Assembly (NCBI GenBank): GCA_018901755.1
Contig: JAHIDZ010000001.1
Location: 10,454 to 74,453, forward strand
From: Nanobdellota archaeon
GTDB lineage: Archaea; Aenigmatarchaeota; Aenigmatarchaeia; Aenigmatarchaeales; Aenigmatarchaeaceae
DNA: 64,000 nucleotides
Direction of reading: 5' to 3'
A program made the position numbers and the translations under genes. How positions within the stretch are numbered: position 1 is the stretch's first letter; each line of letters opens with the position of its first letter. Below the pieces are notes generated by a model. The model had not been told where the DNA came from and searched no databases. It saw only the letters and a list, made by a program, of their open reading frames with translations. Of the stretch, positions 1-3,644 are shown piece by piece.

Positions 1-312
1 AACGTTTACACATTTTCTTAATTCATTAATAAATATATGAACAGTATTGCATGGAATAACAATGAAATTTACACCAGAAGATTCTAATTTTCTTAATCCA
101 TCTTTAATCATTTCTAATGTTAGATCTTTGTTTTTTTGATCATTTATTATATCAGGTGCGGGTAAATTGTAAATTAAAATATGAGGATAATGGTGATTAT
201 CTTTAAGACCAGATTTTTGACATTTTTCTATGATAGTTTGATAAAACCGTATTGTTGCCGATGGTCCCATTCCACCTAAAACTCCTATAATTTTTTTATT
301 AGAATATTTCAT
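1..312 (-). CDS. Aspartate/amino-acid racemase, runs off the window edge (absent from ORF track)
   Basis: Manual translation MKYSNKKIIGVLGGMGPSAT...FIVIPCNTVH has the GxxGGMGP and PCNT racemase motifs; GGTG RBS-like sequence upstream. Confidence 0.9.
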   Translation of the reverse strand, partial: MKYSNKKIIGVLGGMGPSATIRFYQTIIEKCQKSGLKDNHHYPHILIYNLPAPDIINDQKNKDLTLEMIKDGLRKLESSGVNFIVIPCNTVHIFINELRKCVNV

Positions 313-634
313 ATTTTGACACCATTTTATTTTTGGTGGGAGCAGAGGGAATTGCACCCCCATCAGTAGTTTTGGAGACTACTATCCTGCTGTTAGACGA
401 TACTCCCTCTAGAATCTGATAGATTTCGTTGCCAAATTGTGTATATGATAATGGGAATCCATTTTCGTATTGGATTAGATTTTTTCCAGTTAATTTTCTC
501 AGAATATACTTAACAGTACTCTCTGGATATTTTCTAGAGAACAGTCTTACTATCTGTGAAAATGTTTGGTTTTTAGAATTTTTTAAATCAAGAAATATTG
601 CTGCTTCTTTTTTAGATAGTGATTGCTCTAGCAA
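299..634 (-). CDS. Winged-helix DNA-binding protein; C-terminus encoded through tRNA-Trp; may initiate at ATG 671 via a +1 frameshift
   Basis: HTH-wing pattern TFSQIVRLFSRKYPESTVKYILRKLTGKNLI...YTQFGNEI; frame stays open upstream to 661; no Trp codons. Confidence 0.7.
   Translation of the reverse strand: MLEQSLSKKEAAIFLDLKNSKNQTFSQIVRLFSRKYPESTVKYILRKLTGKNLIQYENGFPLSYTQFGNEIYQILEGVSSNSRIVVSKTTDGGAIPSAPTKNKMVSKYEIF
334..407 (-). tRNA. trnW: tRNA-Trp(CCA), intronless, CCA end encoded, atypical D and T loops
   Basis: Acceptor GGGAGTA/TGCTCCC, anticodon arm GTAGT-CTCCAAA-ACTAC, T arm GGGGG-TGCAATT-CCCTC, ends ACCA. Confidence 0.9.
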
Positions 635-671
635 AGTCTTCAGTTCGTTTTTGCCAAAGTTTTATTACCAT
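612..671 (-). CDS. 19-aa leader MVIKLWQKRTEDFARAITI containing a candidate CTT-TGG-C +1 shift site (659-653)
   Basis: GTGAT RBS-like motif directly upstream of ATG; removing one T joins MVIKL to GKNELKTLLEQSLSK of the wHTH ORF. Confidence 0.55.
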   Translation of the reverse strand: MVIKLWQKRTEDFARAITI

Positions 672-771
672 TTAATCACTTAACAATAGTTAGTCTATAA
701 ACTATATAAATATACTGGATAAAAATATTGCCCATGTATTTATAATATAAGAAATGAAATGATATTATAAA

Positions 772-2244
772 GTGATTTTAATGCCAACAATAGATGAGAT
801 TGCAACATTCGCTAAGAAGAAAGGATTTGTGTTTCCAAGCGCAGAGATATATGGAGGTATGGCAGGATTTTATGATTATGGCCCACTTGGTTCAGAAATG
901 GTTATGAAGATTAAGAATCTGTGGTGGAAGTCAATTGTTCATGATAGAGAAAATGTAGTTGGAATTAACGGTTCTATAATTGGGTCAGAAGCTGTCTGGA
1001 ATGCTTCAGGTCATGTTGCGAACTTTATAGACGTCGTTGCTTTCTGTAAGAAATGTAAATTGAAGATAAAAGTAGACAAACATGAAATCGGAAAGGCAAA
1101 ATGTGATTGTGGTGCGTTATATGAAAATCTTGGAGAATTTAATCCGATGTTTTCAACAGAAGTCGGTGTGATTAAAAGTGAAGCTGTTAAAGCTTACCTG
1201 CGGCCAGAAACAGCACAAACTATTTTTATAAATTTCAAGAATGTTTTAGATACTTCTCGTGTTAAATTACCATTCGGAATTGCGCAAATTGGTAAAGCGT
1301 TTAGAAATGAGATTTCACCAAGAAATTTCTTATTTAGGATGAGAGAATTTGAGCAAATGGAATTGGAATTCTTTACACATCCAGATAAGAAAAATGACTG
1401 TCCGATATTTGAAGAAGTTGAAAAAGTTAAAGTTAATGTTTTAACAGCTAAAGAACAAGCCGGAACAGGAAAAATGGAAAGCATGACAATGGGAGATTTG
1501 TTAAAGAAGAAAATAATTAAAACCAAATGGCATGCTTACTGGATTGGTTATAGATATAATTGGTATTTAGATTTAGGAGTAAATCCAGAAAAATTAAGAT
1601 TAAGAGAACATGTACCAGAAGAATTAAGCCACTACTCAGCAGCGACGTGGGATATAGATTATGAATATCCAATTGGTTGGAAAGAACTTGAAGGAAATGC
1701 AGATAGAACAGATTACGATCTTCAACAGCATACAAAATCTTCTAAAGTAGATTTGTCATACTATGATGAAGATACAAAGGAAAGAGTAATTCCTCACGTT
1801 GTTTCAGAACCATCTGCTGGAGTAGATAGAGTATTTTTAACATTGCTAATGGACGCATATCATGAAGAAGAAGTTAAAGGAGAGACGAGAATTGTATTAA
1901 AGTTACATCCAGACGTTGCGCCATTCAAAGTAGCCATACTCCCATTGGTTAAGAAAGATGGATTGTCTGAAAAAGGTAAAGAAGTATTTAATAATTTAAA
2001 ACAAAAGTTCAATTCATTTTATGATGAGTCTGGTTCAATCGGGCGTCGCTATAGAAGAATGGATGAAATAGGAACGCCATTTTGTATAACAGTAGATCAT
2101 GAAAGTTTGGAACAAGATGACTGCACACTCAGAGAGCGAGATTCTATGCGTCAGATTAGAATCAAAATCAAAGATTTGTCCGATATTATCAAAAAGCTTT
2201 CAGAAGGAGAGAAACTAGAAACGTTTGGTAAATTTATTAATTAA
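772..2244 (+). CDS. glyS: Glycine--tRNA ligase (alpha2 type)
   Basis: YDYGPLG, YLRPETAQ, FRNEISPR, GSIGRRYRR motifs. Confidence 0.97.
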   Translation: MILMPTIDEIATFAKKKGFVFPSAEIYGGMAGFYDYGPLGSEMVMKIKNLWWKSIVHDRENVVGINGSIIGSEAVWNASGHVANFIDVVAFCKKCKLKIKVDKHEIGKAKCDCGALYENLGEFNPMFSTEVGVIKSEAVKAYLRPETAQTIFINFKNVLDTSRVKLPFGIAQIGKAFRNEISPRNFLFRMREFEQMELEFFTHPDKKNDCPIFEEVEKVKVNVLTAKEQAGTGKMESMTMGDLLKKKIIKTKWHAYWIGYRYNWYLDLGVNPEKLRLREHVPEELSHYSAATWDIDYEYPIGWKELEGNADRTDYDLQQHTKSSKVDLSYYDEDTKERVIPHVVSEPSAGVDRVFLTLLMDAYHEEEVKGETRIVLKLHPDVAPFKVAILPLVKKDGLSEKGKEVFNNLKQKFNSFYDESGSIGRRYRRMDEIGTPFCITVDHESLEQDDCTLRERDSMRQIRIKIKDLSDIIKKLSEGEKLETFGKFIN

Positions 2245-2433
2245 TTTTTCACCCTTTTTAGTTATTAAAAATTCAAATGGTCGGCCAGTTTTTCTAATCC
2301 TATTTCCTATTAAATATTCATTTCTTTCAGAATCACACTTAACAGATATTGCTGTTGATAAAATTGATGCCTGTAAAACCAAGCGGGATAAAAGATCCGA
2401 ATTATTAAAATATTCAACCAACTTACAAACCAT
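2215..2433 (-). CDS. Hypothetical protein
   Basis: ORF filling the gap downstream of the Zn-ribbon ORF; no motif recognised. Confidence 0.3.
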   Translation of the reverse strand: MVCKLVEYFNNSDLLSRLVLQASILSTAISVKCDSERNEYLIGNRIRKTGRPFEFLITKKGEKLINKFTKRF

Positions 2434-2471
2434 ACGACAATACTTTTATGATCATAAACTTCCAAGATAAT

Positions 2472-2594
2472 TTAGATTTCAAATTCTGTACTACAATCTG
2501 TACAAAAACATTTCTGTGGATAAAAATTATCTAGTTTAGAATGGCCACCAATAACCTGAACGTTTTCGCCATTACAAGAACAACAACGTACCAT
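2472..2594 (-). CDS. 40-aa zinc-ribbon microprotein (absent from ORF track)
   Basis: MVRCCSCNGENVQVIGGHSKLDNFYPQKCFCTDCSTEFEI; two CxxC pairs. Confidence 0.6.
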   Translation of the reverse strand: MVRCCSCNGENVQVIGGHSKLDNFYPQKCFCTDCSTEFEI

Positions 2595-2660
2595 AATAAT
2601 TCTTTTGATACGCACATATTTAAAACATCTGGAAAACAAATATGAATCGGCGATTGACTA

Positions 2661-3644
2661 ATGAACGACATAATCAGAGTGAATAATTTAAGCAAACACT
2701 ATAAAATTTTGCAGCGAGGAGAAGGCAGATTTGAGATAATTAAAACTTTCTTTAGTCGAAAATATAAAACTGTTAAAGCTTTAGATAAAGTTAGTTTTAC
2801 TATTGGAGAAGGAGATTTTGTAGGAATAATCGGACCGAACGGAGCAGGCAAATCTACACTAATTAAGATACTTACAGGAATACTTACACCAACTTCAGGA
2901 GAAGCGGTGGTGACTGGCTTTGTTCCATACAAACAGAGAAAGAAATATGTTCAGAATATTGGAGTTGTATTTGGGCAGCGAACACAGTTGTGGTGGGATC
3001 TTCCTGTTAGAGATTCTTTCGATATGTTAAAATACATTTACAAAGTTCCAGAAAAACAATTCAAAACAAATATGAAGAAATTCGCAGAAATACTTGAGAT
3101 TAATGATTATATGTTAAAACCAGTTAGAAAGTTATCTCTCGGTGAGCGTATGCGTTGCGACATGGCAGCATCCCTATTACATAATCCGAAAATAATATTT
3201 TTAGATGAACCGACAATTGGTCTAGACGTAGAAGCAAAATATAAACTAAGAGAATTTTTGAAAGAGGTAAACAAATTAGGAGTTACAATTATACTTACAA
3301 CACATGACATGGGAGACATTGAAGAATTATGCCCAAGAACTATTATGGTAGATCATGGCAAAATTGTTATAGATGCGCCAACAAAAGATATAAAAAATAA
3401 AATTTCTAGTCAAAGAACATTGTTAATAGATTTCAAGGGGGCTCCTCCGAAATTGAAAAATAAAAAAGGAATGAAAATTGTAAGTAAGGAAGGAGACAGA
3501 ATAATGATAACCATAGATACACGAAAACATTCAGTATCTTCTGTAATGAAAATGATTCTAAAAAAATATGAAGTAGATGATATAACTATTTCAGAACCAT
3601 CTATTGAAGAAAATGTTAGAAAGATTTACAGAGGAGAATTATAA
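2661..3644 (+). CDS. ABC transporter ATP-binding protein
   Basis: Walker A GPNGAGKST, LSLGE signature, FLDEPT. Confidence 0.95.
   Translation: MNDIIRVNNLSKHYKILQRGEGRFEIIKTFFSRKYKTVKALDKVSFTIGEGDFVGIIGPNGAGKSTLIKILTGILTPTSGEAVVTGFVPYKQRKKYVQNIGVVFGQRTQLWWDLPVRDSFDMLKYIYKVPEKQFKTNMKKFAEILEINDYMLKPVRKLSLGERMRCDMAASLLHNPKIIFLDEPTIGLDVEAKYKLREFLKEVNKLGVTIILTTHDMGDIEELCPRTIMVDHGKIVIDAPTKDIKNKISSQRTLLIDFKGAPPKLKNKKGMKIVSKEGDRIMITIDTRKHSVSSVMKMILKKYEVDDITISEPSIEENVRKIYRGEL

What the first reader, a model, noticed from the sequence alone, without database searches (positions are those of the whole stretch)
299..680. Candidate Trp-tRNA-sensing +1 frameshift: CUU-UGG-C leader feeding a wHTH ORF that reads through tRNA-Trp
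Seen: on the minus strand GTGAT-TAA-ATG GTA ATA AAA CTT TGG CAA encodes a 19-aa peptide (671-612). The +1 frame opens at this point (in-frame stop at 664-662) and continues GGC AAA AAC GAA CTG AAG ACT TTG into a winged-helix protein with no Trp codons. That frame crosses the whole tRNA-Trp gene (407-334) without a stop. Established: CUU followed by a slowly decoded codon is the classic +1 slip context (RF2 CUU-UGA, Ty1 CUU-AGG-C), and CUU to UUU re-pairing is what RF2 uses. Inference: when charged tRNA-Trp is scarce, ribosomes pause at UGG, slip, and make MVIKLGKNELKTLLEQ..., so a Trp codon would control a regulator co-transcribed with the tRNA that reads it. I know of no described archaeal circuit like this.
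Basis: partly seen in the sequence, partly recalled or inferred. Interest (0 to 1): 0.88.

Follow-up and report, generated by a model that had tools for sequence, protein, structure and literature searches.

The report
Tryptophan-codon frameshift switch in archaea
A small regulator gene beside the tryptophan tRNA of a tiny archaeon can only be read if the ribosome slips one base at a tryptophan codon, which looks like a built-in gauge of tryptophan supply and appears to be one of a whole family of such switches.

Summary
On the minus strand a Shine-Dalgarno site and ATG (671) open a 19-codon leader containing CTT TGG (659-654). A winged-helix gene continues in the +1 frame and runs through tRNA-Trp (407-334).

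The same layout recurs in all 20 orthologues found in 371 Aenigmatarchaeota genomes: an out-of-frame SD-ATG, 4-15 codons, then NTT TGG (CTT 11, GTT 7, TTT 1; one CTG). An anti-SD-complementary stretch usually sits just upstream, as in bacterial RF2.

TrpRS lies downstream on the same strand in 17 of 20 loci and tRNA-Trp in 4. In some genomes trpE and a TrpB-like gene carry the same cassette.

Paralogous regulators carry a leader needing a -1 shift at 'C CAA XXX'. XXX matched the downstream synthetase (Tyr, Pro, Phe, Ser) in 25 of 25 identifiable cases. Each regulator class is depleted in its own amino acid.

Best reading: starvation-sensing programmed frameshifting at the head of aaRS/tRNA operons. 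No such circuit turned up in my literature searches. All evidence is comparative; none is experimental.

The parts
717..733 (-). Palindrome-like box GGGCAA-N6-TATCC just upstream of the TATA box; a candidate operator.
   Evidence: A box of this form lies 4-6 nt upstream of the TATA box in 14 of 20 orthologous promoters, and its right half in 17 of 20. In control windows the counts were 5 and 101 of 3162. The pattern was written after seeing the sequences. In G000 it occurs in a promoter-like setting only here. That the regulator binds it is inference.
703..712 (-). Archaeal TATA box (TATTTATATA).
   Evidence: Read directly from the sequence. The A/T octamer starts 36-45 nt upstream of the ATG in 17 of 20 orthologues.
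675..679 (-). Shine-Dalgarno site GTGAT, 3 nt before the leader ATG.
   Evidence: It is complementary to the 16S 3' end ...GGATCACCTCCT found in the genome. An SD-like GTGAT/GGTGA lies 3-6 nt before the ATG in the orthologues.
612..671 (-). Zero-frame leader ORF, MVIKLWQKRTEDFARAITI*, made when UGG is decoded normally.
   Evidence: Orthologous leaders end 2-19 codons after the TGG.
664..669 (-). Weak internal SD-like hexamer GGTAAT, 4 nt upstream of the slip codon.
   Evidence: The anti-SD duplex energy of the 14 nt upstream of CTT is only -2.9 kcal/mol here, against a mean of -7.9 over 32 cassettes.
662..664 (-). TAA that closes the regulator's frame upstream, so the regulator can only be entered from the ATG frame within AAA CTT T.
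654..659 (-). Proposed shift site CTT TGG: P-site CUU re-pairs on UUU while the A-site UGG waits for Trp-tRNA.
   Evidence: NTT TGG lies in frame with the SD-ATG in 19 of 20 orthologues, plus one CTG TGG. It also heads 11-12 further genes. In L060 the overlap between the two frames is exactly GTT TGG.
408..658 (-). Winged-helix regulator core in the +1 frame, (F)GKNELKTLLEQ...YQILE.
   Evidence: Pfam Penicillinase_R 3e-4 and TrmB 1e-3, both below their cut-offs. AlphaFold2 pLDDT 87.5, four helices, a hairpin wing and a C-terminal helix. MarR-type Foldseek hits with TM about 0.7. 40-54% identical orthologues.
334..407 (-). tRNA-Trp(CCA), the only tRNA-Trp gene in the assembly, lying inside the regulator's open frame.
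299..333 (-). Tail of the open frame after the tRNA, with stop TAA at 301-299.
   Evidence: In 9 further loci the cognate tRNA lies inside the regulator's open frame in the same way; where I measured it, the stop follows 7-35 nt after the tRNA.
1..312 (-). Start of an amino-acid racemase-like gene. TrpRS follows it just outside the window, at G000:C11:10090-8993, on the same strand.
   Evidence: Pfam Asp_Glu_race 4e-16. tblastn with a verified TrpRS gave 40% identity, E 5e-74. The reading frames are shown.

Best explanation
The window holds the head of a tryptophan operon of an Aenigmatarchaeota (DPANN) archaeon. The gene order is regulator, tRNA-Trp, racemase-like gene, TrpRS.

The first cistron is a recoding switch. 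Ribosomes start at the SD-ATG (671) and read MVIKL. They arrive with peptidyl-tRNA-Leu on CUU in the P site and UGG in the A site.

If charged tRNA-Trp is plentiful, UGG is read and translation ends after a 19-residue peptide.

If charged tRNA-Trp is scarce, the ribosome waits. The P-site tRNA re-pairs one base forward on UUU, GGC is read next, and the winged-helix regulator (MVIKL-GKNELK...) is made. In most relatives an SD-like stretch 3-4 nt upstream helps the slip.

The regulator contains no Trp. It probably binds the palindromic box just upstream of its own TATA box and adjusts transcription of the operon; from the box's position I guess it activates.

Shown here: the anatomy, its conservation, the linkage to Trp genes, and the parallel system in paralogues. 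Inferred: the slip itself, its dependence on Trp-tRNA, DNA binding and the sign of regulation.
For: (1) Frame architecture. In 20 of 20 orthologues from 20 genomes, a well-placed SD-ATG lies in the frame that needs a +1 shift. It is followed after 4-15 codons by NTT TGG: CTT 11, GTT 7, TTT 1, CTG 1. Leader length varies but the frame relation is kept.

(2) The constraint is on nucleotides. In the regulator frame the codon before TTT always ends in the slip-codon base, whatever amino acid it encodes (TAC, AAC, TGC, GCC, GGC, GCG, GTG ...), and Phe is always TTT.

(3) The residues after the junction, GKxELK, are conserved with synonymous changes, so they are translated.

(4) Six of 20 orthologues, the window included, have no in-frame ATG/GTG/TTG before the junction. 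In L060 the open overlap between the two frames is just GTT TGG.

(5) RF2-like stimulator. The anti-SD duplex energy of the 14 nt upstream of the slip codon averages -7.9 kcal/mol. For 436 other NTTTGG sites in the same loci it averages -3.2. It reaches -6 or lower in 27 of 32 cassettes against 50 of 436 controls.

(6) Trp linkage. TrpRS lies downstream on the same strand in 17 of 20 loci. tRNA-Trp follows directly in 4. The same cassette heads trpE (Pfam 6e-92) and a TrpB-like gene (NF009057, 1.9e-192).

(7) Specificity. 30 cassettes lie on the operon strand and 2 on the opposite strand in about 190 kb. The bare motif is not enriched genome-wide.

(8) Parallel system. Paralogous regulators have a leader needing a -1 shift at 'C CAA XXX'. 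XXX equals the amino acid of the downstream aaRS in 25 of 25 loci where an aaRS was identified.

(9) Each class is depleted in its own amino acid: W 0 of 1569 residues; Y 1 of 1445 against 2.2% in the other classes; P 2 of 680 against 2.5%; F 7 of 680 against 4.6%.

(10) It is not an assembly error.

(11) The 2016 review PMC5009743 (passages read) states that no example is known of hungry-codon frameshifting producing a starvation-specific trans-frame protein.
Against: - There is no RNA, ribosome-profiling or peptide evidence. No RNA run holding the locus was on offer.
- The window's own internal SD-like stretch is weak (-2.9 kcal/mol).
- The closest relative (L004) has CTG TGG, which cannot re-pair on UUU.
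- Fourteen of 20 orthologues have an in-frame GTG, TTG or ATG 1-9 codons before the junction, which could serve as an ordinary start. I read most of the GTGs as a by-product of GGTGA at a fixed spacing, but that is an argument and not a test.
- SD-stimulated +1 frameshifting has never been shown on archaeal ribosomes. The review PMC8211752 (passages read) reports only one demonstrated -1 case in archaeal cells.
- Only 20 of 371 genomes searched carry the Trp-type gene.
- The sequences are related, so the P values overstate independence.
Confidence: 0.72

Rival explanations
1. No frameshift. The regulator starts at an in-frame GTG or TTG (TTG 634 in the window). The SD-ATG leader is an overlapping upstream ORF whose Trp codon modulates that start, for example by ribosome stalling.
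For: Fourteen of 20 orthologues have an in-frame GTG, TTG or ATG within 1-9 codons upstream of the junction. The window has TTG 634.
Against: Six of 20 orthologues have no such start. TTG 634 would remove the conserved GKNELKT stretch and most of helix 1, and no SD precedes it. The GTGs lie within 3-9 nt of the leader ATG, so a ribosome on the leader would cover them, and stalling would then repress under starvation, which is the wrong sign for trpE. The invariance of NTT before TGG is left unexplained.
Confidence: 0.13
2. The +1 frameshift is real but constitutive. UGG is simply a slow codon (one tRNA-Trp gene), and the site sets a fixed low output of the regulator without sensing anything.
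For: There is a single tRNA-Trp gene in the assembly. Ty1-type sites work constitutively through a rare tRNA (PMC5009743, passages read).
Against: A fixed-ratio device would not need the sensor codon to match the operon's amino acid, as it does in 25 of 25 paralogous loci. It would also not need the product to avoid that amino acid.
Confidence: 0.1
3. A broken gene or a sequencing artefact: a one-base indel in an ordinary gene.
For: The leader contains short A runs.
Against: Independent contigs from two other studies are identical. The same offset occurs in 20 of 20 orthologues with different leader sequences. The +1 frame stays open for 119 codons in a 32% G+C genome.
Confidence: 0.01

Closest known systems
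Bacterial prfB (release factor 2) programmed +1 frameshift, CUU UGA C with an upstream SD-like stimulator
   Same: A short leader is followed by P-site CUU re-pairing on UUU. The A-site codon is read slowly when its decoder is scarce. In most orthologues an SD-like stretch lies 3-4 nt upstream. The logic is autoregulatory, because the operon encodes what reads the codon. The signal is described in PMC3711429 (passage read).
   Different: The A-site codon is a sense codon (UGG) read by a tRNA, not a stop read by a protein. The product is a DNA-binding regulator unrelated to RF2. The host is an archaeon. GUU and UUU also serve as slip codons.
Yeast Ty1 / ABP140 / EST3 +1 sites (CUU AGG C): 'hungry' sense-codon frameshifting
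   Same: CUU is in the P site and a slowly decoded sense codon is in the A site (PMC5009743).
   Different: Those sites rely on a permanently rare tRNA and are not known to report amino-acid supply. They have no link to the cognate tRNA or synthetase genes.
Bacterial leader-peptide attenuation (trpL, pheL, hisL) and T-box riboswitches
   Same: In attenuation a short leader with codons for the regulated amino acid gauges charged tRNA. T-box elements control aaRS and biosynthetic operons amino acid by amino acid, as this system appears to. These properties are recalled, not taken from a call.
   Different: The read-out here is the reading frame, not a terminator/antiterminator fold. No T-box or other Rfam family was found in window 1-3000. 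The output is a transcription factor, and in some genomes the enzyme itself.
Archaeal trp regulators TrpY (Methanothermobacter) and Tar/TK0271 (Thermococcus)
   Same: Tar is a small HTH-type regulator of aromatic amino-acid operons. It binds a palindrome (TGGACA-N8-TGTCCA) upstream of BRE/TATA and activates transcription. Its effector could not be found (PMC6737238, passages read). The box here occupies a similar position.
   Different: Homology to Tar or TrpY was not tested because I held no sequences for them. Neither is reported to be made by recoding. The gene here heads tRNA/aaRS operons.

Membership tests
RF2-type programmed +1 frameshift site | P-site codon that can re-pair one base forward (CUU followed by U) | tested here: met
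   CTT T at 659-656. NTT T in 19 of 20 orthologues; the exception is CTG T in L004.
RF2-type programmed +1 frameshift site | A-site stop codon UGA whose decoder is the gene's own product | tested here: not met
   The A-site codon is UGG, a sense codon. The decoder (tRNA-Trp, charged by TrpRS) is encoded in the same operon. The site therefore works like RF2 but is not a member.
RF2-type programmed +1 frameshift site | SD-like stimulator about 3 nt upstream of the slip codon | tested here: inconclusive
   Strong in the family: 27 of 32 cassettes at -6 kcal/mol or lower, against 50 of 436 controls. Weak in the window: GGTAAT, -2.9 kcal/mol.
RF2-type programmed +1 frameshift site | A trans-frame protein is actually produced | not testable with these tools
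   No RNA or peptide data were available (one search listed DNA holders only).
Winged helix-turn-helix (MarR/TrmB-like) DNA-binding proteins | Three-helix HTH followed by a beta-hairpin wing | tested here: met
   AlphaFold2 pLDDT 87.5, helices 3-13, 16-27, 33-40 and 46-58, hairpin at 61-72, helix 74-82. Foldseek top hits are MarR, MexR and MepR, with TM 0.6-0.7 and E about 0.02.
Winged helix-turn-helix (MarR/TrmB-like) DNA-binding proteins | Score above a curated family cut-off | tested here: not met
   Pfam Penicillinase_R 21.6 bits (cut-off 22.6) and TrmB 18.9 bits (cut-off 25.6). No NCBIfam hit. PDB profile hits at E 0.001 or weaker.
T-box / Rfam-described leader RNAs | Match to a curated covariance model | tested here: not met
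   cmscan of window 1-3000 at E up to 1 found only the tRNA and one chance miRNA match.
Leader-peptide transcription attenuator | Alternative terminator/antiterminator hairpins after the leader | not tested
   I ran no fold of the leader region. The coding sequence of the regulator starts inside the leader, which leaves no room for such hairpins.

The most novel reading that the evidence does not exclude
Aenigmatarchaeota have a general translational sensor system that plays the role T-box and attenuation play in bacteria. Operons for tRNA, aaRS and biosynthesis genes of Trp, Tyr, Phe, Pro, Ser (perhaps Leu and Ile) each begin with a paralogous winged-helix regulator. That regulator can only be made when the ribosome shifts frame at a codon for that very amino acid: +1 at NUU-UGG, or -1 at C-CAA/CGA-XXX. 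These would be the first natural cases of hungry-codon frameshifting that produce starvation-specific proteins, and the first programmed +1 and regulatory -1 frameshifts in archaeal cellular genes.
Probability: 0.6. Interest if true: 0.95.

Novelty: new variant of a known kind. Interest (0 to 1): 0.92.

Why it matters
How archaea sense amino-acid or charged-tRNA supply is largely unknown. Only TrpY and Tar are described for tryptophan, and Tar's effector was not found (PMC6737238, passages read).

Here the sensor would be the ribosome itself. The frame chosen at one cognate codon decides whether a regulator, and in some genomes the biosynthetic enzyme, is made.

The 2016 review of frameshifting says no natural example of hungry-codon frameshifting producing a starvation-specific trans-frame protein is known (PMC5009743). 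The 2021 review of archaeal recoding lists one demonstrated -1 case and no cellular +1 case (PMC8211752).

The system is compact and modular: a leader of about 30 nt with one exchangeable sensor codon. It can be tested directly with reporters. It also matters for annotation, because gene callers will truncate or miss these genes.

Tried and rejected
Genome-wide use of the cassette. The pattern GGTGAN{3,5}BTTTGG is not enriched over its reversed control in 61 relatives, so this is not a general decoding oddity. In G000, only the window locus and one other hit on C4 (which I take to be noise) lack a start codon upstream in the +1 frame, among 5 CTT TGG hits.

trpE across the phylum. Only 3 of 371 genomes have an Anth_synt_I_N match, and only G127's trpE carries the cassette. 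The trpE genes of L079 and L080 start at ordinary ATGs. TrpRS genes themselves have ordinary starts.

The L042 downstream cassette gene looked TrpE-like by eye. It gave no Pfam hit and no tblastn hit, so I dropped that claim.

L062 site 10115 is probably a chance cassette, and the L071 site after tRNA-Trp is ambiguous.

L143 has 'GTT CTC' upstream of LeuRS and could be a Leu-type +1 site. It also has in-frame GTG and TTG starts, so it remains only a lead.

Expression. No RNA holder was listed. The laid runs are DNA contigs only.

Literature searches found no description of a CUU UGG or Trp-sensing frameshift in archaea. I saw only listings and abstracts, except for passages of PMC8211752, PMC5009743, PMC3711429 and PMC6737238. 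Supplementary files were not consulted. Figures S5-S7 of PMC6737238, on Tar and TrpY homologues, might bear on homology.

The profile search against PDB sequences gave only weak HTH hits.

I found no convincing re-pairing rule for the -1 type. Only positions 1 and 3 re-pair on CCA or CCG. That mechanism is left open.
Full report
**The observation**

On the minus strand the window reads GTGAT-TAA-ATG GTA ATA AAA CTT TGG CAA ... TAA. The ATG is at 671-669 and the stop at 614-612. This is a 19-codon ORF, MVIKLWQKRTEDFARAITI.

The +1 frame is closed by TAA 664-662. It then stays open for 119 codons down to TAA 301-299. It passes through tRNA-Trp(CCA) at 407-334 (ARAGORN; Rfam tRNA 54.2 bits).

The first ATG, GTG or TTG in that frame is TTG 634. 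The product has no Trp.

It gives weak wHTH Pfam hits: Penicillinase_R 3e-4 and TrmB 1e-3, both below their cut-offs. It folds with pLDDT 87.5 into four helices, a hairpin wing and a C-terminal helix. The nearest solved folds are MarR-type (TM about 0.7, E about 0.02).

Contigs from three groundwater runs of two other studies cover 624-729 with no difference and no gap. The frame offset is therefore real.

**The organism**

The window is G000:C11:10454-74453 of an 835-kb, 21-contig genome with 32% G+C. It has an archaeal 16S gene. One related contig is titled Candidatus Aenigmatarchaeota. The phylum and class samples held here are the same 371 genomes.

**Conservation of the architecture**

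A six-frame search found orthologues of the regulator in 20 genomes (E of 6e-27 or lower with the profile).

In all 20:
- a Shine-Dalgarno-like GTGAT/GGTGA lies 3-6 nt before an ATG;
- that ATG is in the frame needing a +1 shift;
- 4-15 codons later comes NTT TGG, where the regulator continues as TTT GGN.

The slip codon is CTT in 11, GTT in 7 and TTT in 1. The closest relative, L004, has CTG TGG. Zero-frame leaders stop 2-19 codons after the TGG.

No orthologue is continuous from its SD-ATG.

The residues after the junction (G-K/R-x-E-L-K) are conserved with synonymous changes, so they are translated. TTG 634 lies downstream of them.

In the regulator frame the codon before TTT ends in the slip-codon base whatever it encodes, and Phe is always TTT. 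That is a constraint on nucleotides, not on protein.

Six of 20 orthologues, the window among them, have no in-frame start before the junction. The other 14 have a GTG, TTG or ATG 1-9 codons upstream. Most of the GTGs are the GTG inside GGTGA.

**An RF2-like stimulator**

The 16S 3' end is ...GGATCACCTCCT. The 14 nt upstream of the slip codon pair with it at a mean of -7.9 kcal/mol in 32 cassettes. For 436 other NTTTGG sites in the same loci the mean is -3.2 kcal/mol. It reaches -6 or lower in 27 of 32 cassettes against 50 of 436 controls (Mann-Whitney p = 2e-15). The sequences are related, so this p value overstates independence.

The usual form is GGT GAN xxx NTT TGG. This has the spacing of the prfB signal, CTT_TGA_C with an upstream SD (PMC3711429). 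The window's version, GGTAAT at -2.9 kcal/mol, is among the weakest.

**Linkage to tryptophan**

- tRNA-Trp follows the regulator directly in 4 of 20 loci, once with an intron.
- A gene verified as TrpRS (NF008927, about 1e-151), or homologous to it, lies downstream on the same strand in 17 of 20 loci. The other three are one 13-kb locus without it and two short contigs.
- In G000 the order is regulator, tRNA-Trp, amino-acid racemase-like gene, TrpRS. No trpE, trpB or trpD was found in G000 by tblastn.
- In other genomes the operon also holds trpEGDCBA (L059) or trpBA (L065, L066).
- The same cassette precedes 11-12 downstream genes. These include trpE (Chorismate_bind 6e-92) and a TrpB-like enzyme (NF009057, 1.9e-192).
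- In L060 the +1 frame is closed by TAG immediately before TTT and the zero frame by TGA immediately after TGG. The only place to change frame is therefore GTT TGG.
- Cassettes number 30 on the operon strand and 2 on the opposite strand in about 190 kb. The bare motif is not enriched genome-wide.

**A conserved promoter box**

A palindrome-like box, GGGCAA-N6-TGCCC, lies 4-6 nt upstream of the TATA box in 14 of 20 promoters. Its right half is present in 17 of 20. In control windows the counts were 5 and 101 of 3162. I wrote the pattern after seeing the sequences. In the window the box is at 733-717.

This is the position of the Tar activator site in Thermococcus (PMC6737238). That the regulator binds it is inference.

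**A parallel system in paralogues**

This lies outside the given finding but bears on it.

G000 has a paralogue followed by tRNA-Pro and ProRS. In it, and in 38 of 60 paralogous loci examined, the SD-start leader lies in the frame that needs a -1 (or +2) shift. The junction carries an invariant 'C CAA XXX', read as 'CCA Axx' in the regulator frame.

Twenty of these 38 loci have no in-frame start before the conserved core.

XXX is TAT or TAC, CCA, TTT or TTC, TCC, ATA or ATC, or TGG.

An aaRS could be identified downstream in 25 loci: 10 by NCBIfam above cut-off, and 15 by tblastn with those verified references. Its amino acid equalled XXX in 25 of 25:
- Tyr 13 (one of these leaders, L117, also has a Phe site);
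- Pro 7;
- Phe 4;
- Ser 1.

In the other 13 loci none of my reference aaRS was found in the stretch held. The reasons were short contigs, a racemase gene instead, or aminotransferases after the Ile-type leader.

Two further loci have 'C CGA TAT' and TyrRS.

The cognate tRNA gene lies inside the 3' end of the regulator's open frame in 10 loci: Trp 4, Tyr 5, Phe 1. So 'reads through the tRNA' is a recurrent trait, and I cannot explain it.

**Cognate amino-acid depletion**

In the 85 residues after the junction:
- Trp-type regulators have 0 W in 1569 residues;
- Tyr-type have 1 Y in 1445, against 2.2% in the other classes;
- Pro-type have 2 P in 680, against 2.5%;
- Phe-type have 7 F in 680, against 4.6%;
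- the one Ser-type has 1 S in 85, against 9%.

One-sided Fisher p values run from 0.008 down to 1e-10. This is what is expected of proteins that must be made when that amino acid's charged tRNA is short.

**Interpretation**

The best reading is a programmed +1 frameshift of the RF2/Ty1 kind, in which UGG is the hungry A-site codon. It makes synthesis of an operon regulator depend on scarcity of charged tRNA-Trp. In some genomes it does the same for trpE and a TrpB-like enzyme.

The rivals fit less well:
- An ordinary GTG/TTG start with a regulatory upstream ORF cannot explain the 6 start-less orthologues. It also leaves the invariant NTT unexplained and gives the wrong sign of control for trpE.
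- A constitutive frameshift does not explain the codon-to-synthetase match or the amino-acid depletion.
- Pseudogene or assembly error is contradicted and by conservation.

What is not shown: that slippage occurs, its efficiency, its response to Trp, DNA binding by the regulator, and why the ORF runs through the tRNA.

**Comparison with the literature**

Reviews state that in archaeal cells only one -1 case has been demonstrated and no cellular +1 case (PMC8211752). They also state that no natural example is known of hungry-codon frameshifting giving a starvation-specific trans-frame protein (PMC5009743).

Eight full-text searches found no description of this circuit.

Noticed in passing
G000:C5:37002-37250 (-) = L002/L098; also L067, L073, L081-L094, L107-L144: Paralogous wHTH regulators carry an SD-start leader that needs a -1 (or +2) shift at an invariant 'C CAA XXX'. 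XXX matches the downstream aaRS (Tyr, Pro, Phe, Ser) in 25 of 25 identifiable loci. Two loci use 'C CGA TAT'. The re-pairing rule for the -1 shift is unclear.
   Followed up: yes
window 299-407 (-); L073 4560-4634; L087, L122, L124, L127, L128: The cognate tRNA gene (Trp, Tyr or Phe) sits inside the 3' end of the regulator's open frame in 10 loci, with no stop before it. Whether ribosomes translate through it, or tRNA processing leaves a stop-less mRNA, is unknown.
   Followed up: partly
window 1-312 (-), continuing to G000:C11 about 10100; L081:957-1646, L082, L083, L089: An amino-acid racemase family gene (TIGR00035, 1.3e-49 for the L081 copy) recurs directly after these regulators. It lies between tRNA-Trp and TrpRS in G000 and follows Tyr-type regulators elsewhere.
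   Followed up: partly
G000:C4:6797-9870 (-) (L058): The 16S rRNA gene is interrupted. The Rfam match spans 1992 nt for a 1478-nt model, and the true 3' end (GGATCACCTCCT) lies about 1 kb further on. This points to large insertions or introns.
   Followed up: partly
whole G000 genome: ARAGORN in intron mode tRNA genes, about half with introns, some at non-canonical positions. Some calls (for example Leu 'AAG' and Pro 'AGG') may be mis-set.
   Followed up: no
L143 (= L051) operon-strand positions 367-680: A regulator upstream of LeuRS (NF008957, 1200 bits) has a leader ATG AAA GGT GTT GCT GTT CTC ... in the +1-requiring frame. 'GTT CTC' could be a Leu-type +1 site, but in-frame GTG and TTG starts exist.
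   Followed up: partly
L092 operon-strand 605-700; L081; L083: Some leaders carry two or three 'C CAA XXX' units in a row (Tyr-Trp-Tyr; Trp-Tyr; Tyr-Phe). This would act as an OR gate for aromatic amino acids.
   Followed up: no
L113 2842-5323; L115 1886-3124; L138 3031-4059: Genes after Ile- and Phe-type regulators that lack a nearby aaRS: two aminotransferases (best match alanine aminotransferase, just below cut-off), aIF2-gamma, and a protein with a weak RelA/SpoT-like stretch (2.6e-13, far below cut-off).
   Followed up: no
window 1331-1388 (+): A sub-threshold Rfam match to mir-1255 (28.6 bits against a gathering score of 63) lies inside the GlyRS gene. It is a chance match.
   Followed up: no
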